Below are positions 1-46,260 of a stretch of DNA of 64,000 nucleotides, piece by piece (the stretch's first letter is position 1; every line of letters begins with the position of its first letter). The DNA comes from Candidatus Hodarchaeota archaeon (GTDB lineage: Archaea; Asgardarchaeota; Lokiarchaeia; Sigyniarchaeales; SOKP01). The stretch covers positions 74,958 to 138,957 of the forward strand of contig JBHLKM010000005.1 in NCBI GenBank assembly GCA_048886685.1, read 5' to 3'. The notes under the pieces are model-generated. The model was not told the DNA's origin. It did not search any database and was given only the letters and a program-made list of their open reading frames with translations. A program made the position numbers and the translations under genes.

Positions 1-236
1 TTATTTTTATCGTTATCTTCCCATAATAATATTCTGTTTCTTTCACTGAGGAGCAATACTTCAATAGCGTCAAAAACTAAAATATTCTGTTTATCATTAT
101 TTTTTTCAATAGTTCCTATATAAGAACCATTATAAAATTCTTCAATTCCTTTACTATCACTTATAATAACTTTATCCTTTTCGATTATTCCCTCTAACTG
201 AATCTTTTCAGTTTTCTCATTTGATTCTTCAGTCAT
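1..236 (-). CDS. endA: tRNA splicing endonuclease, N-terminal part (runs off window)
   Basis: Manual translation from ATG at 236: MTEESNEKTEKIQLEGIIEKDKVIISDSKGIEEFYNGSYIGTIEKNNDKQNILVFDAIEVLLLSERNRILLW. The Y..SYIG...L...EVLLL.E pattern resembles the EndA N-terminal domain. The catalytic domain is outside the window. Confidence 0.65.
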   Translation of the reverse strand, partial: MTEESNEKTEKIQLEGIIEKDKVIISDSKGIEEFYNGSYIGTIEKNNDKQNILVFDAIEVLLLSERNRILLWEDNDKN

Positions 237-6845: not shown

Positions 6846-8369
6846 ATGCTTCAATATCAGATAGTTGGACTGTTAATTAGTTCAATAATAGTTTTTTACA
6901 TCGCAATAAGAGGTCTAAACCATTTAAGTGAATTTAAGATTAACCAATATCTTAAATTAAAACTTGAGGGCGGAAGAACTAATATATATGTAAATAATCG
7001 ACGATTTATACAGTGTATGTACCTGTTATTAAATATTCGAGCGGATATTGTTGAAGAATATGATGAGATTGAATCTATTGATGAAGCAGCTGAAAAATTA
7101 GATCGCTCTATGGAGAGAAATCATCATAAAGTGCCACCAGAAACTGAATTTTGGGGACATTGTTCTAATATACAAGCTTGGGCTGACAATGAATATGATA
7201 CAAGAATTCTTCATCGAAATTTAGCTTTCCCTTTACTAAAAGCACTTGTTGATGCAGGAGATCCTATAGCTAGGCGAAAATTCAAAGAGGAAATTGCCTT
7301 AAGATTCGCAACTGGACACCCTACAGTTATAAGATTTTTAACTCAAAATGGTTATCTACATTACTTAACCGAAGATGAATTTGAAAGTATGCTAATTGAT
7401 ATAGATTTTCCCAGTATTGATGAATATTCAAGAAAAATTTTACCGCTGTTCGATAATTTGAAAGAAACTGAAGCCATTCAACAAATAAAGCAGTATACCA
7501 CAAATTTTGTAAATAGATTCCGTTTTAAATATAAGTATTTAATTTTACTAAAAGCAATAGAAAAGCTCCCAGGCACAATAAGACAAGAATTTATAGAAAT
7601 CATATATAACAAATATAAAAATGTCAGAAGCTTTCCTATATTGAAATTCTTGAATAAAGCTCAAATAAATTACAATGATTTAGATCTCAAAATTATTTCT
7701 TATGATAACAGGTTGGTGGGGATAGTTTTAGATTCAAAAGTTAATTTAAAAAATAAAATGATTGAAAATATAGAAGATATCAAGGGATTAGAAGAATCCT
7801 CAGAAAATATTATGGAACTGGATTTAAGTCATAATAGGATTACTAATTTAAGGGGAATTGAGAAATTAAAAAATTTAAAGAAATTATCCTTGAAAAACAA
7901 CTATATTGAAAAAATTGAATGGTTAGAAGGGCTTGATAATTTGGAATTTTTAGATCTTTCAGGAAATATAAATATTGAAAAGATTCCCGATTCTTTAAAT
8001 AAATTACCCTCACTTAAAATAGTTAAATTAACGGGATGTAGAATCAAACAATTTTCAGAATCAGTATCACACTTCTTCTGGATGGGTCAGAATTTTAGAT
8101 ATTATACAGAATTTACTCAAGAAGATATAAACTTCTATGAGAAAACTCATAAATCAAAAGCAGGTATCAACGGCAGGCTTTACAAAAATTTCGTGAAATG
8201 GTTATTTAAATTAAAGAAAATGATGAGAAAATATAAGTTTATTTATGAGGATCTCAAAAATTTCGAGAAAAAAACTAATTTACAAGCAATCCATTCAGGA
8301 AAACTATTAAAATCTTTCTTAAAGTATCTTGAGAATAAAAAACAAACAAGGATAACAAGATTCTTCTAA
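6846..8369 (+). CDS. Leucine-rich-repeat protein with Lokiarchaeia-type N-terminal domain
   Basis: EFKINQYLKLKLE..RTNIYV, EFWGHCSNIQAW, LHRNLAFPLLKAL; LRRs LDLSHNRI, LSLKNNYI, LDLSGN; start uncertain. Confidence 0.8.
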   Translation: MLQYQIVGLLISSIIVFYIAIRGLNHLSEFKINQYLKLKLEGGRTNIYVNNRRFIQCMYLLLNIRADIVEEYDEIESIDEAAEKLDRSMERNHHKVPPETEFWGHCSNIQAWADNEYDTRILHRNLAFPLLKALVDAGDPIARRKFKEEIALRFATGHPTVIRFLTQNGYLHYLTEDEFESMLIDIDFPSIDEYSRKILPLFDNLKETEAIQQIKQYTTNFVNRFRFKYKYLILLKAIEKLPGTIRQEFIEIIYNKYKNVRSFPILKFLNKAQINYNDLDLKIISYDNRLVGIVLDSKVNLKNKMIENIEDIKGLEESSENIMELDLSHNRITNLRGIEKLKNLKKLSLKNNYIEKIEWLEGLDNLEFLDLSGNINIEKIPDSLNKLPSLKIVKLTGCRIKQFSESVSHFFWMGQNFRYYTEFTQEDINFYEKTHKSKAGINGRLYKNFVKWLFKLKKMMRKYKFIYEDLKNFEKKTNLQAIHSGKLLKSFLKYLENKKQTRITRFF

Positions 8370-8436
8370 AAATGATCATTCGCTACATTTTATGGCATTT
8401 TCATCAATATTTAAAACAAGTATCAAAAGCTTCTTG

Positions 8437-9381
8437 TTAGGAATATTCTAACATTTTCTCAATTGGTTTTATCGCCCGTTTTGCTATATTAGGAGGAACT
8501 TTCACTTCAAATTTATTATCGTTTAAGTTTTCCAAGATGTATTTAATGAGTTCGAGATTGTGTTTCTTCATATTATAGCAAACTAGCTTCTCTTTTGCTA
8601 AATAGAATTTTTTTTGAGGGAAATCCTGAGCCATACGTTCTAAGAGCCCAACCTCTGTTCCAATTATAAATTCATTTATGTCAGGCAGACTTTCTTTAGC
8701 ATAATTGTACATCATAGAAGTAGAACCCACAAAATCAGCTAATTCTCTTACTCGTCTTACACATTCTGGATGAACAAGAAGCTTTGCTTTAGGATAATTT
8801 TCTCTTACAATTTTTATATCATCAATTGTAATTTGAGAGTGAACATAACAATGTCCTTTATCTGGCATTTTTATAGTTTTTATATGTGACATTTGTTCTG
8901 TGTAGTCTGCTAAATTTGCATCTGGTCCGAATAAAACTGCTCGTGTATTAAATTCTTCGCTAATTTTTTCTGTTATTTTCACTGCATTTGAAGATGTACA
9001 GCAGATATCAGATTCTGCTTTTACGGCAGCAGTAGAGTTGACATAAACTACCGCGGGTAATCCCGGATGTCTTTCTTTAAACTCTTTAACCATTTTTGGG
9101 TTAAGAAATGCGGCCATCGGACAACATGATTCATAATTCGGAATCATTATATGCTTATCTTGGTTTATAATTGACGCTGTCTCAGCCATGAAATCAACAC
9201 CGGCAAATATAATATAATCTGTATTTGCTTTTTCTTTAGCTGTTCGAGATAATCCGAGAGAGTCTCCTAAATAATCAGCAATTTCTTGAATTTCAATTGG
9301 TTGATAATAATGAGCTAAAATTATTACATTATTTTGCTTTTTTAGTGTTAAAATTTCTTCTTGAAGTTGTTTGATAGTCAT
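8437..9381 (-). CDS. nadA: Quinolinate synthase
   Basis: ILAHYYQ, GDSLGL, FMAETA, CPMA, YVNS, CYVH, HPEC, GST motifs. Confidence 0.95.
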   Translation of the reverse strand: MTIKQLQEEILTLKKQNNVIILAHYYQPIEIQEIADYLGDSLGLSRTAKEKANTDYIIFAGVDFMAETASIINQDKHIMIPNYESCCPMAAFLNPKMVKEFKERHPGLPAVVYVNSTAAVKAESDICCTSSNAVKITEKISEEFNTRAVLFGPDANLADYTEQMSHIKTIKMPDKGHCYVHSQITIDDIKIVRENYPKAKLLVHPECVRRVRELADFVGSTSMMYNYAKESLPDINEFIIGTEVGLLERMAQDFPQKKFYLAKEKLVCYNMKKHNLELIKYILENLNDNKFEVKVPPNIAKRAIKPIEKMLEYS

Positions 9382-9565
9382 TTTTTCAAAAAGGAATCAA
9401 TATTTATTATAATACTTAAGGATTTAAGAAAAGATAAGTTGTTTGATTATAAAAAATTTGAATTATGTAATTTTAGAGACTTTAATTAGGAAGTTTGTTA
9501 ATTCGTAAAATTATTATTTCTGGGAAATATAATTGAAATTAACATTATAATGGGGTAGTTTCATT

Positions 9566-11239
9566 ATGGATTTTATTTATAAGGAAGAATATTGGTATAT
9601 AAGTTCATTTATAAACACTAATCTTGTAGATGGTAATGTGAAAAGTGAAGAAATTAGGATAAAAATTAAAGAATGTCTAAATAATCTAAAAAAAGAAGAT
9701 CTTTATTATAAAATACGAGATGAAATTGGCGATGATATAATAGACATGGCGAAAAATATTTCATTGTCTTGTAAATGGGAACCTTATCTGGAGAGTTTTC
9801 CCTATGAGGATGAAAACAGCCAAAAAGAATATGATACCTTAGGATTTTTTCAGTTTGATGTAGAATATTATAAAGAAAATCCCTCAAAAAAACAAAATAT
9901 TAGATCGAACTATATTCAACAGATCCCACAAATAATAAATACTTTTTTAATGGATTATTCTGCAAAGGAGGAAGCCAAAGGGATTCTTTTTGATTTAGAG
10001 AGCCCTATGTATATTTTTATTACTTCAGATAAAGTAGAGCCTCAAGAAATCTCTTGGACACAAGAAAATATTGAAAAGTACAAAAAAATTATTGGTTATT
10101 GGACAGAGGTATATTCAGGGCAATGGGAAGATTATTCAGAGGTCCTATACGATAAACGTATTGAAAATAATTTATCTAATCGTTTGTCAGAACTACATTT
10201 TATTCGTAGAAATTCTGGATTCATATATATGGCAGAAGATAATTATACGAATTTCTTTAACTCTTATATGAAAGAATATGTTTTAACTCCTACTCCAAAA
10301 ATGAGAGCAGTTCTATTTGCACTACGATCTATAAATGAGTCATTAGATTTACTATTCTTGAAGACTGAATCAGAAGAATTCAAGGATGTTGAAACTATTG
10401 AAAGAAAAATTCGAAATCTTAGATTTTTAAGGGGTTTAATTCAAACTAAATTAAGCTTGGTATATAATGAATTGGATTATAATAGAAGACAACATTTTAC
10501 GAATGTATTAAAACATTTACTTAATGAGTTTGAAATTGATAGAATAGTTTCCCGAATCAATGAAAAATTTGATATTATTTATGATTCAATGCAAGGATTA
10601 TATGTCAAAAAAAATGAAGAAATTCAAAAAAGAACTGAAAAAGGTCTTAATCTCCTAAATCTACTTTTTGGAGCGGGAATTTTAGCAGACCTTGGAAGTG
10701 TTATTATGATTGCATTAAGTTTACAAGAAGGGGATCTTAGTTCAATAGTGTTAAATAGTATAATTGCAATAATAATTAGTGGAATTTTAATTACTACAAT
10801 TATATTCAACGTTTATATGAGAGTTCAAGTTAATAAGGCAGAAATTTTACATGCTGTGGATGCCGTTATTGAAGATGGAAAAGGAAATGTGGTTTTAATC
10901 AAGCGGAAATATCCTCCTTATCAAGGTTTTTATGCATTACCAGGCGGTTCTGTTGAAAAGGGTGAAAAACTAAAAGAAGCATTGGTAAGAGAAGTTAGAG
11001 AAGAAACTAATTTAAATGTGGATGTAACAGAGAAAATTGGAATTTACGATAAGGAGGGAAGGGATCCTCGAGGTAATGTTCATAGTACTGCTTATAAGTG
11101 TATTGTTCTTGGAAATATTTCTGAGATGCAAAATGGTGAAGAAACGGTAGAAGTAAAACTTTTTTCAAAAGAACAGGTAAAAGATATGGAATTAGCGTTT
11201 GATCATAAGGAAATGCTAAGAGACGCTAAATTCATATGA
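9566..11239 (+). CDS. CorA-like helical/2-TM membrane protein fused to a C-terminal Nudix hydrolase
   Basis: Nudix box GGSVEKGEKLKEALVREVREET, RDPRG and LAFDH; two hydrophobic helices after a long helical stalk. Nudix call is firm; CorA-like call is tentative. Confidence 0.65.
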   Translation: MDFIYKEEYWYISSFINTNLVDGNVKSEEIRIKIKECLNNLKKEDLYYKIRDEIGDDIIDMAKNISLSCKWEPYLESFPYEDENSQKEYDTLGFFQFDVEYYKENPSKKQNIRSNYIQQIPQIINTFLMDYSAKEEAKGILFDLESPMYIFITSDKVEPQEISWTQENIEKYKKIIGYWTEVYSGQWEDYSEVLYDKRIENNLSNRLSELHFIRRNSGFIYMAEDNYTNFFNSYMKEYVLTPTPKMRAVLFALRSINESLDLLFLKTESEEFKDVETIERKIRNLRFLRGLIQTKLSLVYNELDYNRRQHFTNVLKHLLNEFEIDRIVSRINEKFDIIYDSMQGLYVKKNEEIQKRTEKGLNLLNLLFGAGILADLGSVIMIALSLQEGDLSSIVLNSIIAIIISGILITTIIFNVYMRVQVNKAEILHAVDAVIEDGKGNVVLIKRKYPPYQGFYALPGGSVEKGEKLKEALVREVREETNLNVDVTEKIGIYDKEGRDPRGNVHSTAYKCIVLGNISEMQNGEETVEVKLFSKEQVKDMELAFDHKEMLRDAKFI

Positions 11240-11333
11240 TAATATAATAACATCATTAGTTTTTTATACAATTATCAAAACTTTATTATTTTTAGTTAAA
11301 TTCTTCAAATTCAAACTCAGAAATTGAAGAAAA

Positions 11334-11898
11334 ATGATAATTATACCAAGTCCGGAAACCGGAAAAGAACCTCAAATTCACGATTCTGCTTACATTGCTC
11401 CCACAGCTGTCATCATCGGAGACGTAATAATCGGAGAAAATTCAAATGTTTGGTTTGGTGCAACTATTCGAGGAGATTGGGGCTCAATTAAAATTGGAAA
11501 AAATACTAGCATTCAAGAAAATGTTACCATTCATATTGAAGCAGGAAGTTCTGTAACTATAGGGGATGATTGTATTATAGGTCATCATGCAAAGATGTGA
11601 AGGTCTTACTTTACTCTGCAGAATGATTCATGGACCTTGTACAATAGAAAATGGCTGTGTTGTCGGAATTGCATCAAATGTATTACACCAGTCAAAACTT
11701 TGTGAAGGTTCTGTCCTTGCGGCAGGAGCAGTGCTCTTAGGCAAAGAGATCCCTCCTAGAAGCCTGGCTGTTGGAATTCCCGCCTCGGTTAAAAAAGAAG
11801 GAATTTATAAGGGGAAACTTGAAGGAACTAAAATATCCAAACTCTATACAAAAAAAGGTCAGACTTTTAAACAGTATTTTAACCAAAATTCATCATAG
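11334..11898 (+). CDS. Gamma carbonic anhydrase family (YrdA/CaiE-like), interrupted by a 31-nt insertion; joined product 177 aa
   Basis: Joining 11334-11592 to 11624-11898 (534 nt) gives ...NVTIH...CIIGHHAMIHGPC..., with hexapeptide repeats and three Zn-ligand His in canonical spacing. Confidence 0.85.
11593..11623 (+). other. Putative BHB-type intron in a protein-coding gene
   Basis: Relaxed BHB fold; removal restores the frame and the GHxAxIHG motif; contains the in-frame TGA. Confidence 0.7.
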
Positions 11899-11932
11899 GA
11901 AAAATTAAATTTTCCTATTTCTTTTCTTTTTA

Positions 11933-12673
11933 CTATTTTGAGCAAAAACAACTTTCATTCTTAACTATATCTATAATATTAAACCTTAAATCTATTAAAT
12001 TCACCATTAAAACTTTATTTTCAAGATTAGGGAGACCTAAGGCTGTTTTTATTACTTCTAAAGCTTCTAATGTGCCTAAAATACCAGGAGTTACGCCAAT
12101 TACCGGTAATGGTCCTTCTTCTGGAGGAACTTCTGGAGGTTCTGAAAATACACATTGATAACAAGCAGTCTTTCTTGGATTAATTGTGATAATTTGTCCA
12201 TAAAAATCTTTGATCCCTGCAATAACACATCTTAAATTATTTTCAATAGCTATCTTGTTAACTAGGAATTTTGTTTTAAAATTGTCACTACAGTCAACCA
12301 CAAAATCATAATCTTTTTCTTTTAGATATTTCTTAATCGATTCTTCATCAATATAATCTTTATAAACGTTAATTTGAACATCTGAATTAAGTTTTGATAA
12401 TACATCTTTGGCAGAATTTACCTTATCTTTACCAATTTGAGATTCATTATAGAGAATTTGCCTTTGTAGATTTGAAATATCCAAAATATCATTATCTATT
12501 ATTGTTAATTGATTAATCCCTGCAGCTGTTAAATACAGTGAAAAAGGCGATCCTAAGCCTCCGCAACCTATCTGAAGGATTTTCAGCTCAGAAATCTTTT
12601 CTTGACCTTTTTCCCCTATTACGGGAGATATAATTTGACGCGAATATCTCTCCTTTTGCCTTTCAGTTAGAAT
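11933..12673 (-). CDS. ThiF/MoeB/E1-like adenylyltransferase (probable ATT start at 12673)
   Basis: Frame extends upstream of the called ORF: ILTERQKERYSRQI...QIGCGGLGS...DNDILDISNLQRQ; DCSDN, CYQC. Confidence 0.85.
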   Translation of the reverse strand: MLTERQKERYSRQIISPVIGEKGQEKISELKILQIGCGGLGSPFSLYLTAAGINQLTIIDNDILDISNLQRQILYNESQIGKDKVNSAKDVLSKLNSDVQINVYKDYIDEESIKKYLKEKDYDFVVDCSDNFKTKFLVNKIAIENNLRCVIAGIKDFYGQIITINPRKTACYQCVFSEPPEVPPEEGPLPVIGVTPGILGTLEALEVIKTALGLPNLENKVLMVNLIDLRFNIIDIVKNESCFCSK

Positions 12674-12679
12674 AAAATA

Positions 12680-13054
12680 TCACCTATCTAGCATTTTTTT
12701 TACTTTTTTAATTGTTTCTTCAATTTCTATGAAAATTAAACCTAGATTAGTATTTAAATTTAATAATGAAACCATAATTAATTGCTCATCAGCCCCCATA
12801 ATAATTAATTGAAAATCATTAAATTCAACAGTTAAATTATCAACAAACTTGCTTCCTATTGCTGAAGCGGCTGTTTCAATAGCACCAAACATAGTCGCAG
12901 CCATAGCACAAAATTTCCGATCATCGATATCTCTCGGTAATCTTGAAACAATCAATAGACCATTGCGGTTAACAAGAGCAGTGCCTATTATATCGCTTAT
13001 AGTTTCAAGCTTTTCTAATTCTTTATGGAGATTTTGAACTTTTAAACTATTCAT
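12680..13054 (-). CDS. Roadblock/LAMTOR2 domain protein
   Basis: IIGTALVNRNGLLIVSRLP, AMAATMFGAIE, NLGLIFIEI. Confidence 0.9.
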   Translation of the reverse strand: MNSLKVQNLHKELEKLETISDIIGTALVNRNGLLIVSRLPRDIDDRKFCAMAATMFGAIETAASAIGSKFVDNLTVEFNDFQLIIMGADEQLIMVSLLNLNTNLGLIFIEIEETIKKVKKMLDR

Positions 13055-13187
13055 TTCTATACAAAAGTTGGCTTCATGTTAATTTGAATTATATATGAAT
13101 TATATAAAAATATCTATTTGAAGATTAAATAATTAATAATATCGCTTTATACTTTTAGAATGAGGTTTTTAGATTAAATGCAGAAAA

Positions 13188-13409
13188 CTATGCTAATGCT
13201 TTTTTCCTATTGCGATAAAATGATTTTTGACCATTAAAGGGACGAGTTCTATTTCTCCATCCTGGTTGACGTAATTTCGCAGATTTTCCAAAACCACAAC
13301 TGGCACAAAATCTCTTTCTTCTATGATATGAATGTTTTCCACAACGACGACATGCTTTATGGGTAGCTGCCTTATTTTTCTTTCCTTTACTTGGTGTACC
13401 TTTTCCCAT
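13188..13409 (-). CDS. rpl37e: 50S ribosomal protein L37e
   Basis: [25 protein letters not shown]. Confidence 0.97.
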
Positions 13410-13414
13410 TTACC

Positions 13415-13723
13415 TTATACCTCTTCAGTTTCTTCTCGATGCATCAATTTCTCTTCTGCATCGCCGGCAAAGACTAATCTTTCACGGTCCTGGCCTATAA
13501 AGATTACGCTCGCACCCCTAATCATCACAGTCCCTAAATCTTTGCTTCTTTTTCCACCACGACCAAAATATATTTCTTTAGCGTCTTTAACGATTAAATT
13601 CATATAGTTATCAAATTTTACAAGTTTCCCAGTTAAATATGTGTTCCAAATCTTTAATTTAATATTTACTTCTGGCTTTAAAATTGCCTTACTAAGTGTT
13701 CTTGAAATTGTGTGTTGTGACAT
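13415..13723 (-). CDS. Sm-like (SmAP/Lsm) protein with acidic C-terminal extension
   Basis: Sm1 GKLVKFDNYMNLIVKDAKE, Sm2 LGTVMIRGASVIFI; classic linkage to rpl37e. Confidence 0.9.
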   Translation of the reverse strand: MSQHTISRTLSKAILKPEVNIKLKIWNTYLTGKLVKFDNYMNLIVKDAKEIYFGRGGKRSKDLGTVMIRGASVIFIGQDRERLVFAGDAEEKLMHREETEEV

Positions 13724-13838
13724 CGAAATAAAATCTCTTGAAAATTATTCTACGTTATGTTTTTAATTACGTAATCAAATAAATATTTTTTTAAATATTT
13801 AAGAATTTAAATGAAATATTATTAGATAAGGGATATAA

Positions 13839-14876
13839 ATGAAAAAAATCGCATATTTTGATGCATGTGTTGAAACTCCTGAAGAGATTATCCTTGCTGC
13901 TGATATGATCCCTGTTAGACTATTTGGAAATCCAACAATTGGAATAGATAAAGCGAATGAGCATGTACCTCCAACTCATTGTGTTTGGGCAAGAAATATT
14001 CTTGAACAAGCTATTAATGGGCTGGATGATGATATTAAAGGAGTTATAACAACACACGGATGTGATTGTACTAATAGAGAATTTGATATTTGGTTAGAGT
14101 GTGTGAATACAGAATTTCTTTTTTTTCTTAATGCTCCTTTAAAGCGTAATGAGACAGCATTACATTTCTTTATAAATGATATTAAAGAACTTATTATCCA
14201 ATTGGAAGAAAAATTCAATATCAAAATAACCTCTGAAAAAATTAAGGAAGCTATTAAAAAAATGAATAGAATTAGGACACTTTTAAGAGAAATATCAAAC
14301 TTCCGGGTCGATATGAAATTAAAAGGTTCTGAATTCCATGCATTAGTTAAAGAAGTTCAACTATCAGATAAGGATGAAGTGGTTAAAAAACTTGAATCAA
14401 AAGTAGCTGAATATGAAGGAAGAGAGCCATTTTCAAAAAACAACCTCAAAAATGTACTATTAACAGGATCAGTAATAGATGATACAGAATTTATTAATTT
14501 TCTCGAAGATGTTGGTTTTCACATCATAATTGATGATATATGCATCGGAACTAAATATTTTTGGAATAATGTTGATGAAAACGGAGATCCTATAGAAGCC
14601 ATAGCGGAATTTCATCTTAATAAGCCAATTTATTCTACAAAATTTCCTTCATATGAGCGATTTAAAGTCTTAAAAAATTTAGCAGAAAAATATAAGGTGG
14701 ATGGTATAATCAATATTGCACAGAAATTCTGTGAGCCTGTTCTGTATGGGCATCCATATTTTAATAAAAAATTTAAGGAATTAGATATTCCATATCTTTT
14801 TGTCGAAATGGAATACAATAGAGAGTCATATAAGCAATTAATAACTAGATTCGAAGCATTTAAAGAAATAATATAA
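13839..14876 (+). CDS. 2-hydroxyacyl-CoA dehydratase / benzoyl-CoA reductase family subunit
   Basis: PEEIILAAD, HC, GCD, DDICIG, QKFCEP, TRFEAF. Confidence 0.85.
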   Translation: MKKIAYFDACVETPEEIILAADMIPVRLFGNPTIGIDKANEHVPPTHCVWARNILEQAINGLDDDIKGVITTHGCDCTNREFDIWLECVNTEFLFFLNAPLKRNETALHFFINDIKELIIQLEEKFNIKITSEKIKEAIKKMNRIRTLLREISNFRVDMKLKGSEFHALVKEVQLSDKDEVVKKLESKVAEYEGREPFSKNNLKNVLLTGSVIDDTEFINFLEDVGFHIIIDDICIGTKYFWNNVDENGDPIEAIAEFHLNKPIYSTKFPSYERFKVLKNLAEKYKVDGIINIAQKFCEPVLYGHPYFNKKFKELDIPYLFVEMEYNRESYKQLITRFEAFKEII

Positions 14877-14892
14877 ACAAGGTTTTATAACA

Positions 14893-16155
14893 ATGTCAAA
14901 AATGAAGAAAACTGGAAAGATGTTAAATGCAACCAATAAATTAAGGAATGAAATGGGAAGACATTTTTTAGCTATTGAACAAGCATATCGAGAGGGAAAG
15001 CCAACCGCTTGGGCAACTGCAGGAACTCCCGTTGAACTTTTATATTCTATGGGTGTACAACCGATGCTTCCTGAAAATTCAGCAACAATTTCGGCAGCGC
15101 TTAAGAAATCCCAAAATTTTATTGAACTTGCTGAAGATCAAGGATACTCCTATGATTTATGTTCTTATTTCAAAACAAATGTTGGTGCTGTATTAAGCAA
15201 TGCTGAAATGAGTGATGGTGGTACAAGAAAACCAACATTCATGCTTTCAAGTGATGTGATATGTGATACTCATGTGAATTGGTTTCAAGTACAATCTGAA
15301 AGAATGGGTGGTGTGCCCCACTTTACAATTGATATTCCACATGTAGTTAGTAACATAAACAATAGACAGCGAGAATATTTTATAAAATATATTAAAGAAC
15401 AACTCTGGGAGCTATTAGATTTTATAACAGAAATCACTGGAAACGAATATAATGAAGAAAAAGCTCGAGAGATAGCTCAAAATTCGTATGAGATGGGAAA
15501 GATATGGCAAGAAGTTTTTGAGTTAAGAAAAAACATACCATGCCCAGTTTCAACAAGAGACACTTTTGGGGGACTTTTTCCCTTATTTACAATGACAGGG
15601 TTAAGATCACCTATAAAATTGTATAAAAGAATGTATAGAGAAGCCAAAGAACGTGTTGATAATGGAATTGGTGCATTAGAAAAGGAAGAATTTAGATTAA
15701 TGTTTGAAGGAATTCCCTTCTGGTATAACTTGAAATTTTTTGCTAACTTAGAGCGATGGAATGCAATTATTGTCTATGAACCTTATGTATATGCTTTTAC
15801 CAAATATACAAATCCAAAGATTACAAAAGAAGATGTATTAAATAACCCCGTAGAGTCAATGGCGGAATTAATTCTCAGTTTTTGGTATATTTATGACTTG
15901 GAGACTCGTGTTCAAAAATTCAAGGAAACAGTAAGAGATTGGAAAGTTGATGGCGTAATCTTACATAATAATATGTCATGTCGTCCAAATGCATGTGGGA
16001 TGTATGATTTAAAACGTAGATTAATGGAGGAAGCTGATATTCCCACACTTGTGATTGATGCGGATATGAATGACCCACGTAAGCTGAATGAGACTCAGGT
16101 TCTAAACCAAATCGAAAGTTTCATAGAAATTCTCAGAAAAAGGAAGAAGAAGTAA
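14893..16155 (+). CDS. 2-hydroxyacyl-CoA dehydratase / benzoyl-CoA reductase family subunit (HgdA/BcrB-like)
   Basis: LPEN, DLCSY, ICD, VDGVILH..SCRP, DMNDPR. Confidence 0.85.
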   Translation: MSKMKKTGKMLNATNKLRNEMGRHFLAIEQAYREGKPTAWATAGTPVELLYSMGVQPMLPENSATISAALKKSQNFIELAEDQGYSYDLCSYFKTNVGAVLSNAEMSDGGTRKPTFMLSSDVICDTHVNWFQVQSERMGGVPHFTIDIPHVVSNINNRQREYFIKYIKEQLWELLDFITEITGNEYNEEKAREIAQNSYEMGKIWQEVFELRKNIPCPVSTRDTFGGLFPLFTMTGLRSPIKLYKRMYREAKERVDNGIGALEKEEFRLMFEGIPFWYNLKFFANLERWNAIIVYEPYVYAFTKYTNPKITKEDVLNNPVESMAELILSFWYIYDLETRVQKFKETVRDWKVDGVILHNNMSCRPNACGMYDLKRRLMEEADIPTLVIDADMNDPRKLNETQVLNQIESFIEILRKRKKK

Positions 16156-16158
16156 TTT

Positions 16159-17829
16159 CTACTTGATTATAACTCCTTCAAGAGGAGCCAATTTGAAATA
16201 ATCACCAAGGTCATCTAAATCTAACTTTCTGTTAGATTTTGTCGAAAAAAGCAATTCTAAGCTTATTTCTGGAGTTTTTACTATTATCTTTTTTCCTGAA
16301 AAATTTAAGTAGATATACAGTTCTTGTTCTTCATGAATCCGTTTAAAAGCGATACATTTATTATTTAATTTTCCAAGGTTAATAATTTCAAACAATCCCT
16401 CCTGTAAAGAAATGTTTTCCCCTCTAACCTTTAATAATTGTCTATAGCAATTTAATAAAGAATTTGGATTTTTTTCTTCATTAGAAACATTTATTTGTTT
16501 ATAATTATCGGAAATCCTTAACCAAGTCTTAGCTTCGGGATTAGGTGTAAATCCAGCATGAAATGCGGCATTCCATTGCATTGGAGTCCTGCATCTATCT
16601 CTTGTTAAAGAAAACCCGAGAACTTTGGAAATTAATAGGAAAGGAAACTTCGAAAATTTGCGCCCAATCGGGTCTTCACTTGTTTTAAGCATAAATTTAA
16701 CGTTTGACATTCCAATTTCCTCCCCATAATATATGTAAGGAACACCTCTTAATGTTAATTGAAGAGTAGCAAGAATTTTTGTTTTCTGGACACTATTATC
16801 TAAGAGGGATATGTATCTATCTCTATCATGGTTTCCATAAACATAAGTAGGTGTATAAGGTGATGGTAAAATTTGCTCAATTTTAGAAATAACACGTGCG
16901 ATTTTTTTGGGTTTAAATGACAATGCCTTAGAAGTAAATTCAAATAAAAAACTCATATGTAAACCATTATTCTCTGGTCCATAATATTTTTTTAAATTTT
17001 TCAGAGATGTACAGACTTCTCCTACTAAGAATCTCTCAGATTCGTATTCATCCATTAATTTTCTTAATTCTAATACAAAATTAAATGTCTCAGGAAGGTT
17101 TGCATCGTATCTGTGATGTTGAAAAAATGAAGCTGTTTTTTTATCCGATAATGTTAATGACCAAGAAAAAGGATTATTTTTTAATCCTAAATCTTCAAAA
17201 ATTGTATGCAATATGTCTAATCTGAATCCATCAACTCCTTTATCCAACCAAAATCGCATTATGTTAAACATTGCTTCTTTCACTTCTGGATTTCGATAGT
17301 TTAAATCAGGTTGAAAAGGTAAAAAATGGAAATAATACCATTGTCCTGTATTTTCATAGTATCTCCATGCTGAACCTCCAGGAATTGCTTTCCAGTTGTT
17401 AGGTGGTTTCTTTCCTTCTGGTTTTTTCCCATCTCTCCAGATATACCAATCTCTCTTTGGATTGTCCTTGCTCGATGCAGATTCTCTGAACCATGGATGC
17501 TCAATTGAAGTATGATTAAGGACGAGATCTAATACTAATTTCATATGTTTATCATGTATTTCATTTAACAATTTTTCAAAACTACTCATTGTTCCGTAAA
17601 CAGGATCAATCTCACGAAAATTCACAATATCATATCCATGATCTTGCTGCGGAGATTTAAAAAATGGGCTAATCCATATAGTCTCTATTCCTAAATTCTT
17701 TAAATAATCTAACTTTTCAATAATACCTTGAATATCTCCGATTCCATTGCCAGTACTATCTTTAAATGAGCGTGGATAAATTTGATATACCACTGTCTTT
17801 TGCCACCATTTATATTTACCAACATTCAT
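16159..17829 (-). CDS. GH13 alpha-glucosidase / oligo-1,6-glucosidase
   Basis: YQIYPRSFKDS, DLVLNHTS, DGFRLD, VGE, NHD. Confidence 0.93.
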   Translation of the reverse strand: MNVGKYKWWQKTVVYQIYPRSFKDSTGNGIGDIQGIIEKLDYLKNLGIETIWISPFFKSPQQDHGYDIVNFREIDPVYGTMSSFEKLLNEIHDKHMKLVLDLVLNHTSIEHPWFRESASSKDNPKRDWYIWRDGKKPEGKKPPNNWKAIPGGSAWRYYENTGQWYYFHFLPFQPDLNYRNPEVKEAMFNIMRFWLDKGVDGFRLDILHTIFEDLGLKNNPFSWSLTLSDKKTASFFQHHRYDANLPETFNFVLELRKLMDEYESERFLVGEVCTSLKNLKKYYGPENNGLHMSFLFEFTSKALSFKPKKIARVISKIEQILPSPYTPTYVYGNHDRDRYISLLDNSVQKTKILATLQLTLRGVPYIYYGEEIGMSNVKFMLKTSEDPIGRKFSKFPFLLISKVLGFSLTRDRCRTPMQWNAAFHAGFTPNPEAKTWLRISDNYKQINVSNEEKNPNSLLNCYRQLLKVRGENISLQEGLFEIINLGKLNNKCIAFKRIHEEQELYIYLNFSGKKIIVKTPEISLELLFSTKSNRKLDLDDLGDYFKLAPLEGVIIK

Positions 17830-25755: not shown

Positions 25756-25933
25756 TGGAGGGGGTGAGAATTTCTACTGCCTTCGAGGAGACAAGCAATA
25801 TTCGAACTCACGAATTAAGGCTCTTTATGGTAACCTTAAAGAGTGGCCTTTGCCACTGGATCTTAAGTCCAGCACCTATAGTCTTGACCCATTTTGGTGT
25901 AAAATGGCTTTGACCAAACTCGGTAACCCCTCC
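25756..25933 (-). tRNA. tRNA-Leu(UAA) with three introns (25878-25909, 25815-25844, 25770-25800)
   Basis: Spliced: GGAGGGGTTACCGAGTTTGGTCAAAGGTGCTGGACTTAAGATCCAGTGGCAAAGGCCTTCGTGAGTTCGAATCTCACCCCCTCCA (85 nt); full cloverleaf with long variable arm. Confidence 0.92.
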
Positions 25934-45319: not shown

Positions 45320-46260
45320 TTATTCCTTTTTTGATGTCTCTTTTACTCTAAGAAAAATAGGAATGGAACCCATGAAAAAAATGGGTGCAAAGATAAATAT
45401 GAAAGACTCTGGTATGAATCCCGCGATTATAAAATATGTTGCTACAAAACCCCCTATAAAAGCCCCAATAATCTGTGGTAATGTATATATTATATTCAAC
45501 AGACCAAAAAATTTACCCCGTGAATCCTCAGGAATTAAGTCCTGAGACCAAGTATTCATAGGAGTATCAAGGCCTAAAATTATGATGAGTAAAAAGGGTA
45601 ATATTACGTAGAATAAAATTAAATTTATCTGATCGTTTACTTTTATGAAAGGTATTAGAAATAACATTGTTGAAGTTATCATAATTGAAATAGGTATGAA
45701 CTTTTTGCGCCCATGTTTGTCAGAAAGTCTTCCTAATAAATTAATAACAATTATTAGGACTGGAAATGAAATGACTATTCCAATAAGCAATTCTACCGTG
45801 GATAAACCTAAAGCAAATATGTAAATAAAAAGAAAAGGCATAATAATTCCAGAACCTGTCTTATAAATCGTAAGAGCTAAAACAATTTTAAAGAAATCTT
45901 TATGAGTTTTTAATTGTTCTAAATTGACAATTTCTTTTATTTCAACTATAAATTTCTTCTTCGGTGGTAACTCTAAAGCTTTTTTTTCTTTAATGAAAAA
46001 AAACCTAATAATCCTGTGATTAAAAAAGCTGTTCCTCCTATTGTATGAATAAATATATGACCTTCTTTTCCGATAACTGTTTCACCTCCACTTTCTTGTC
46101 CAAAAATGAGATCAGCAACTAAGAAGGCTGCAATAGCAAGCAATTAACCAACGTTTAAAATTGAATTTACGATGCCATTTGCAAGACCTCTTCTTTCTAA
46201 TTCTACTGTATCAGGTATTAGAGATCTCTAAGATACATAATAAACATTAGAAGTAAAACT
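45320..46260 (-). pseudogene. MFS transporter pseudogene
   Basis: Upstream frame SLIPDTVELERRGLANG... has TAG (46228-30) and TAA (46144-46), a frameshift in the A8 run at 45996-46003, and no 5' end; 3' part carries GRLSDKHGRK. Confidence 0.8.

What the first reader, a model, noticed from the sequence alone, without database searches (positions are those of the whole stretch)
11569..11645. Candidate EndA-spliced BHB intron inside a protein-coding gene (gamma-carbonic anhydrase)
Seen: the two ORF fragments are separated by exactly 31 extra nt. Removing 11593-11623 gives ...GGT CAT CAT GCA ATG ATT CAT GGA, which restores the frame and the Zn-ligand GHxAxIHG spacing. The gene has no other lesion. 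The junctions fold as a relaxed BHB: exon helix ATC(11584-86)/GAT(11625-27), bulge AA|T, central helix ATGC/GCAG (3 bp plus A.G), bulge AA|A, and an intron stem GA-GTGAAG/CTTTAC-TC. Exon-exon pairing extends further (AGGTC/GACCT, ATTGTA/TACAAT). Cutting after the 2nd nt of each bulge gives the in-frame mRNA. The tRNA-Leu introns in this window are 30-32 nt, and one also has a G.A mismatch in its central helix. Established: archaeal EndA splices BHB introns, and mRNA cases such as crenarchaeal cbf5 are rare. Inference: this lineage splices mRNA with its tRNA machinery. A register shifted by one (perfect TGCA/TGCA helix) would remove 29 nt and give a premature stop. That is either a caveat or a possible regulatory alternative.
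Basis: partly seen in the sequence, partly recalled or inferred. Interest (0 to 1): 0.9.

Follow-up and report, generated by a model that had tools for sequence, protein, structure and literature searches.

The report
Mini-intron splits Asgard carbonic anhydrase gene
A carbonic anhydrase gene of an Asgard archaeon is interrupted by a conserved 31-base hairpin shaped like a tRNA intron, so its message very probably has to be cut and rejoined by the tRNA-splicing enzymes, which the papers I could search document for the coding part of only one other archaeal gene.

Summary
Confirmed. Removing window 11593-11623 (31 nt) joins two fragments into an intact 177-aa gamma-carbonic anhydrase. The same-site insert occurs in 28 loci from independent assemblies (15 distinct sequences: 13 of 31 nt, 2 of 30 nt). 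They form one clade; 70 other orthologs lack it. Both exons are under strong purifying selection (dN/dS 0.06-0.08, dS 1-2), so it is no pseudogene. The intron stem covaries, the A.G mismatch of the central helix became A-U in two separate branches, and variants at the last intron base pin the junction to the bulge-helix-bulge cut sites. The genome encodes a two-subunit EndA with the broad-specificity loop, plus RtcB. Best reading (0.9): an EndA/RtcB-spliced mRNA intron, one of many in this lineage. Caveats: no spliced RNA was seen for this gene; the motif is relaxed; the folding model prefers a non-productive register; regulation is unsupported. This scan found the same class before on other genes and genomes.

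The parts
11334..11592 (+). Exon 1 of the gamma-carbonic anhydrase gene (codons 1-86 plus the A of the Met87 codon); carries His67 and His84
   Evidence: Pfam Hexapep; spliced translation; dN/dS 0.06-0.12
11593..11623 (+). 31-nt insert, predicted intron; in-frame TGA at 11598-11600; hairpin 11597-11602 with 11609-11614, first pair 11594-11617
   Evidence: Absent in 70 orthologs, present in 28 loci; covariation
11624..11898 (+). Exon 2 (TG of Met87 to the stop); carries His89
   Evidence: Pfam Hexapep; dN/dS 0.03-0.08 although out of frame without splicing
11587..11621 (+). Central helix 11587-11590 with 11618-11621 (A.G, U-A, G-C, C-G)
   Evidence: Three pairs kept in 15 of 15 variants; outer A.G is A-U in L035, L266 and L261
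11591..11624 (+). Two 3-nt bulges, 11591-11593 and 11622-11624; predicted cuts after 11592 and after 11623
   Evidence: Only this register keeps the invariant Met in L037, L257, L258, L261
11569..11645 (+). Exon-exon duplex closing the motif: 11584-86 with 11625-27, 11579-83 with 11633-37, 11569-75 with 11639-45
   Evidence: 98-100% of cells paired in 9 carriers; synonymous codons frozen, 7 of 12 near the junction against 9 of 108 elsewhere
25756..25933 (-). tRNA-Leu(TAA) with three BHB introns (25909-25878, 32 nt; 25844-25815, 30 nt; 25800-25770, 31 nt): same size class, internal yardstick
   Evidence: In-silico spliced product is called tRNA-Leu(TAA) by ARAGORN
1..236 (-). 5' part of the gene for the second (structural-type, no catalytic His) EndA subunit; the rest lies left of the window
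   Evidence: PF01974 match at G000:C5:74654-74902 and its reading frame

Best explanation
The insert is a tRNA-type intron in a messenger RNA, gained once in the ancestor of one clade of a Lokiarchaeia-type (Promethearchaeota) genus. The transcript folds into a long exon-exon hairpin that closes a relaxed bulge-helix-bulge. The two-subunit EndA cuts after the second base of each bulge (after 11592 and 11623), RtcB joins the exons, and the message then encodes a full-length gamma-carbonic anhydrase with His67, His84 and His89. Unspliced message stops at a TGA inside the intron. Shown here: the insert, its conservation, selection on both exons and on the RNA fold, the junction register, the enzymes' genes. 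Inferred from known archaeal biochemistry: cleavage, ligation, and that EndA selects this register over competing folds.
For: 28 loci, 15 distinct inserts, one clade 100/99; 70 intronless orthologs and 120 full-length homologs all have H-H-x-M-[IV]-H-G with no insertion. dN/dS 0.06-0.08 at dS 1-2.3 over the whole gene, in both exons. Three intron pairs with changes on both sides; covariation score 0.119 against 0.069, 0 of 500 shuffles; slid controls 32-41% paired against 95%. A.G to A-U in two separate branches. Last intron base A to T in four loci leaves only the BHB register giving Met. 30-nt and 31-nt versions are both fixed by one excision. EndA alpha aligns without gaps to A. pernix EndA over the specificity loop, with the Lys44 equivalent (PMC5829648); second subunit and RtcB present. 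Same class in uL11 (the only copy found), purA, uvrB, PFK, thioredoxin.
Against: No spliced transcript, excised circle or peptide was seen for this gene. The central helix is 3 of 4 in this genome, and relaxed motifs are common by chance (10.64898/2026.10.13.758758). ViennaRNA scores the productive register 4.2 kcal/mol above the minimum fold and 2.1 above the shifted register; the shifted register is lower in 14 of 15 variants. The tRNA-Leu T-loop intron, which must be spliced, shows a similar 4.4 kcal/mol gap. Carriers are kin, so the shuffle and Fisher figures overstate significance.
Confidence: 0.9

Rival explanations
1. Split gene: the insert supplies a stop and the second half restarts at its own ATG (11623), giving two chains that assemble.
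For: Exon 2 begins with an in-frame ATG in most carriers; the in-frame TGA is invariant in 15 of 15 variants; gene callers annotate two genes.
Against: Four loci have TTG there, though TTG can start translation. The break falls between two zinc-ligand histidines inside the beta-helix. The two residues before the stop vary freely. It does not explain RNA covariation or frozen synonymous codons, nor the inserts in uL11, purA and PFK that break codons and motifs with no restart codon.
Confidence: 0.03
2. Translational recoding: the ribosome frameshifts, hops or reads through at the TGA.
For: The +1 frame is open through all 31-nt inserts (read); a stop inside a hairpin recalls the T4 gene 60 hop (own knowledge).
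Against: The 31-nt version needs a +1 shift and the 30-nt version needs stop read-through. The codon before the stop varies widely and no matched take-off and landing codon exists 31 nt apart. The product would carry about 10 extra residues where 120 of 120 homologs have none.
Confidence: 0.02
3. The insert is removed from RNA, but by another nuclease or pathway, or it is excised at the DNA level like a tiny mobile element.
For: The productive fold is not the predicted minimum; cleavage by EndA is not shown.
Against: Junctions sit exactly at EndA geometry here and in five other genes. No conserved target duplication (L037 removes the 2-nt slide). No second copy in the genome. No intronless allele inside the carrier clade: best full-length homolog is 81% identical and lies outside it.
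Confidence: 0.03
4. Pseudogene or assembly artefact.
For: Three paralogs exist in the genome, so loss could be tolerated.
Against: 28 loci from independent assemblies; no further stop or frameshift in any carrier; dN/dS no higher than in intronless pairs (0.13-0.22). A truly decayed copy in G016 looks different: nonsense change plus truncation.
Confidence: 0.01

Closest known systems
cbf5 pre-mRNA intron of Desulfurococcales and Sulfolobales (Watanabe 2002; Yoshinari 2006; Yokobori 2009, PMC2738675)
   Same: Short intron inside a coding sequence at a catalytic motif, relaxed BHB, cuts between the second and third bulge bases, two-subunit EndA, variable interior, patchy presence among relatives.
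   Different: Other phylum, other gene, independent gain. cbf5 is reported as a lone case; here at least seven genes of one genome carry such inserts. cbf5 splicing was shown by cDNA and in vitro; this one was not.
Haloferax volcanii HVO_1309 5' UTR intron (PMC7714728)
   Same: EndA-cut BHB intron in an mRNA, seen as a circle.
   Different: Lies in the untranslated leader (46 nt), so the reading frame does not depend on it; different EndA type.
Non-canonical tRNA introns of Asgard archaea (bioRxiv 10.64898/2026.10.13.758758) and this window's tRNA-Leu
   Same: Size about 30 nt, BHB boundaries, repeated gains, same enzymes.
   Different: Host is a tRNA; that preprint does not mention mRNA introns. 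No tRNA donor for this insert was found.
HAC1/XBP1 non-spliceosomal mRNA splicing in eukaryotes (own knowledge, not checked here)
   Same: A short frame-shifting intron removed by endonuclease cuts and a tRNA ligase (RtcB in animals).
   Different: Cut by IRE1 at two separate stem-loops and stress-regulated; no regulation is shown here. An analogy, not homology.

Membership tests
Archaeal EndA-spliced BHB intron (relaxed class) | Two 3-nt bulges on opposite strands around a 4-nt central helix with at least three pairs | tested here: met
   3 of 4 pairs here, 3-4 of 4 in all 15 variants
Archaeal BHB intron (canonical class) | All four central pairs plus a flanking helix | tested here: not met
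   Outer pair is A.G in this genome; met only in L035, L266, L261. Filed as relaxed, not canonical.
Archaeal EndA-spliced BHB intron (relaxed class) | Exon-intron borders fall after the second base of each bulge | tested here: met
   Only this register keeps Met87 in L037, L257, L258, L261; Met is invariant in 70 of 70 and 120 of 120 homologs
Archaeal EndA-spliced BHB intron (relaxed class) | Flanking exon helix and intron helix under selection | tested here: met
   Compensatory changes in three intron pairs; exon helices 98-100% paired; synonymous constraint
Archaeal EndA-spliced BHB intron (relaxed class) | Host encodes a broad-specificity EndA and a ligase | tested here: met
   Two EndA paralogs, alpha with Tyr/His/Lys motifs and the CSL/L1 loop lysine; RtcB (PMC5829648)
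Archaeal EndA-spliced BHB intron (relaxed class) | Cleavage by EndA at the predicted sites | not testable with these tools
   Needs an in vitro assay
Archaeal EndA-spliced BHB intron (relaxed class) | Spliced message or excised circular intron exists in cells | not testable with these tools
   No run was listed, so no reads could be laid
Gamma-carbonic anhydrase family | Hexapeptide beta-helix with three histidines spaced as His65, His82, His87 | tested here: met
   His67, His84, His89 after splicing; an intronless ortholog matches solved gamma-CAs at E 1e-38; ligand numbering from PMC9389205
Gamma-carbonic anhydrase family | CO2 hydration activity | not testable with these tools
   Not assayed

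The most novel reading that the evidence does not exclude
Beyond routine removal, splicing of this and similar messages is a regulated gate on expression in Lokiarchaeia: unspliced message is stopped by the conserved TGA, and the balance between productive and shifted folds or EndA supply sets enzyme output, an archaeal counterpart of XBP1/HAC1-type control in the closest relatives of eukaryotes. (The less bold claim, that this lineage routinely splices many mRNAs with EndA and RtcB, I put at about 0.85.)
Probability: 0.12. Interest if true: 0.95.

Novelty: new variant of a known kind. Interest (0 to 1): 0.8.

Why it matters
Papers I could search report EndA splicing inside an archaeal coding sequence for cbf5 only (PMC2738675, PMC7714728). 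If this reading holds, a lineage of Asgard archaea gains and keeps small introns in many protein genes and removes them with its tRNA machinery. That gives a living prokaryotic system in which to test how introns arise in messages and coexist with translation, close to the origin of eukaryotes. It also means many 'split' or 'pseudo' genes in these genomes are misannotated. This site is a good test substrate: natural variants include relaxed and canonical helices and two lengths.

Tried and rejected
RNA evidence: no RNA holder listed for window 7000-16900, so no reads were laid; this says nothing about expression. No full-length protein from the carrier clade, which could have come from a transcript assembly, turned up among 120 best longer homologs. 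Source of the insert: no copy or tRNA donor in this genome or in 1.6 Mb of G005; the best hit (C14:83761) is an unremarkable palindrome. Shifted 29-nt register as a conserved alternative: rejected. The neighbouring E1-like gene looked truncated but has no insert. I first concluded that no tRNA-Leu lay in the window; a profile scan overturned this. My first genome comparison missed split genes through a scoring bug and was redone. My brute-force search did not resolve the two thiolase junctions. Other apparent breaks in orthologs were a 1-nt frameshift (L099) and a decayed copy (G016). Literature searches combining Asgard, Lokiarchaea or Promethearchaea with mRNA splicing found no report; the library lacks most subscription journals. 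No structure was predicted, because the joined protein has no reference.

Full report
Observation. Two hexapeptide-repeat frames lie at 11334-11600 and 11587-11898. Removing 11593-11623 joins them into a 177-aa protein reading GHHAMIHG with no other lesion; the unspliced frame stops at a TGA inside the insert, and a 29-nt removal also stops at once. An intronless ortholog matches solved gamma-carbonic anhydrases, and His67, His84, His89 have the spacing of the zinc ligands His65, His82, His87 (PMC9389205). The 77-nt region folds better than shuffles (z -3.11). A relaxed central helix is not evidence by itself: 42% of random coding sites give one, whereas 0.1% match all the features of this site, by criteria set afterwards.

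Orthologs. Among 30 same-genus loci, four carry a 31-nt insert at this site and 26 lack it. Metagenome, genome and assembly searches raised this to 28 loci with 15 distinct inserts, 13 of 31 nt and 2 of 30 nt. Titled records name Promethearchaeota. Carriers form one side of a branch with support 100/99, nested among intronless genes, which fits a single gain. The insert is therefore no assembly error.

Selection. Among four carrier species dS is 1.0-2.3 and dN/dS 0.06-0.08; exon 2, out of frame unless the insert is removed, gives 0.03-0.08. No carrier has another stop or frameshift. All 120 full-length homologs have H-H-x-M-[IV]-H-G without insertion. A full-length protein is thus still being selected.

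RNA structure. The shifted register scores lower on covariation (27 of 500 shuffles). Synonymous codons in the exon-exon duplex are frozen, 7 of 12 against 9 of 108 elsewhere, while His89, whose third base is unpaired, varies. Carriers are kin, so these figures overstate significance.

Junction. In this genome the excision can slide by two bases. In L037, L257, L258 and L261 the last intron base is T, and only excision after the second base of each bulge keeps the Met that is invariant in 70 of 70 intronless genes. That is the EndA rule as described for cbf5 (PMC2738675). It also weakens re-initiation at the ATG that overlaps the junction. The 30-nt version is in frame with a stop and the 31-nt version is out of frame, so recoding would need two different events while one excision explains both.

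Machinery. The genome has two EndA paralogs. One has the catalytic Tyr/His/Lys motifs and aligns without gaps to A. pernix EndA across the loop whose Lys44 gives broad specificity (PMC5829648). The other lacks the His and begins in this window (1-236, minus strand). RtcB is present. The tRNA-Leu(TAA) at 25933-25756 has three introns of 32, 30 and 31 nt; the T-loop one has a G.A mismatch, so the cell must process relaxed motifs of this size.

A genome-wide class. Comparing 962 genes with intact orthologs in a half sample of G005 gave 29-31-nt disrupting inserts in this gene, uvrB, PFK and thioredoxin, a 71-nt excess in thiolase, and one 30-nt insert without a clear motif. Following earlier notes I confirmed uL11 (35 nt, the only copy found) and purA (30 nt), and a second PFK insert (31 nt). 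In uL11, purA, uvrB, the 30-nt PFK insert and thioredoxin the motif-restoring junction coincides with BHB geometry, with 3-4 central pairs. uL11 is split at a second site in eight relatives. About 0.5-0.6% of compared genes are affected, a lower bound because genes broken in both genomes are missed.

Caveats. The energy model places the productive register 4.2 kcal/mol above the minimum fold and 2.1 above the shifted one; the shifted one is lower in 14 of 15 variants. A.G is not scored as a pair, and the obligatory tRNA-Leu intron shows a similar gap. How EndA chooses the register, and how splicing outruns coupled translation, is inferred, not shown. The invariant in-frame TGA may be stem conservation or selection for stopping unspliced message; I cannot separate these. 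Regulation through the 29-nt register is unsupported: it is never productive and its helix is complete in only 7 of 15 variants. No RNA could be examined.

Comparison and novelty. It works like, and by all sequence-testable features belongs to, the relaxed BHB intron class; it fails the canonical test in this genome. The published coding-sequence precedent is cbf5, plus a 5' UTR case in Haloferax. A 2026 preprint on Asgard tRNA introns does not mention mRNAs, and targeted searches found no report for Asgard messages. Earlier notes of this scan describe the same class on other genes and genomes; they are leads, not support, and one claims spliced RNA for a dnaG gene, which I could not check. 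Verdict: real; very probably an EndA/RtcB-spliced mRNA intron (0.9); new variant of a known kind; interest 0.8.

Noticed in passing
window 25933-25756 (-): tRNA-Leu(TAA) with three introns (D-loop, variable arm, T-loop) that ARAGORN and Rfam both miss; a similar multi-intron tRNA-Leu lies at G000:C15:44876 (-).
   Followed up: yes
window 1-236 (-); G000:C5:74594-75220: Gene for the structural-type EndA subunit lies 11 kb from the intron-bearing gene.
   Followed up: partly
window 12673-11933 (-): The E1/ThiF-like gene is intact and seems to start at ATT (12673), just after an AGGTGA motif; L002 and L061 have Met at that position.
   Followed up: partly
G000 C1:204867-204901, C2:178230-178201, C3:215413-215441, C16:51445-51416, C1:288858-288829: BHB-shaped inserts of 35, 30, 29, 30 and 30 nt in uL11, purA, uvrB, PFK and thioredoxin; PFK has a second 31-nt insert and thiolase (C3, about 76487-76560) a 71-nt excess.
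   Followed up: partly
G000:C40:3425-3454 (+): A 30-nt stop-containing insert in an AMP-binding acyl-CoA synthetase-like gene has no BHB at its best-scoring junction; unexplained.
   Followed up: no
G002, G004, G005, G006, G012, G014, G019, G020 (uL11); L272: uL11 is split at a second site in these relatives, about 28 nt in G005, different from the site in G000 and G003.
   Followed up: partly
L152:7287-7838: Record titled Thorarchaeota, but the gene nests inside the Promethearchaeota carrier clade; probably a labelling or binning issue.
   Followed up: no
window 11598-11600 and all carriers: The in-frame TGA and the three pairs around it are invariant without covariation in nearly all variants, unlike the rest of the intron stem.
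   Followed up: partly
L271 (G016:C24) and L099:1062-1582: A decayed gamma-CA fragment in G016 and a 1-nt frameshift in L099; neither is an intron.
   Followed up: yes
window 45900-46260: Stretch without a long ORF that looks by eye like a remnant of a transporter gene on the minus strand; not tested.
   Followed up: no
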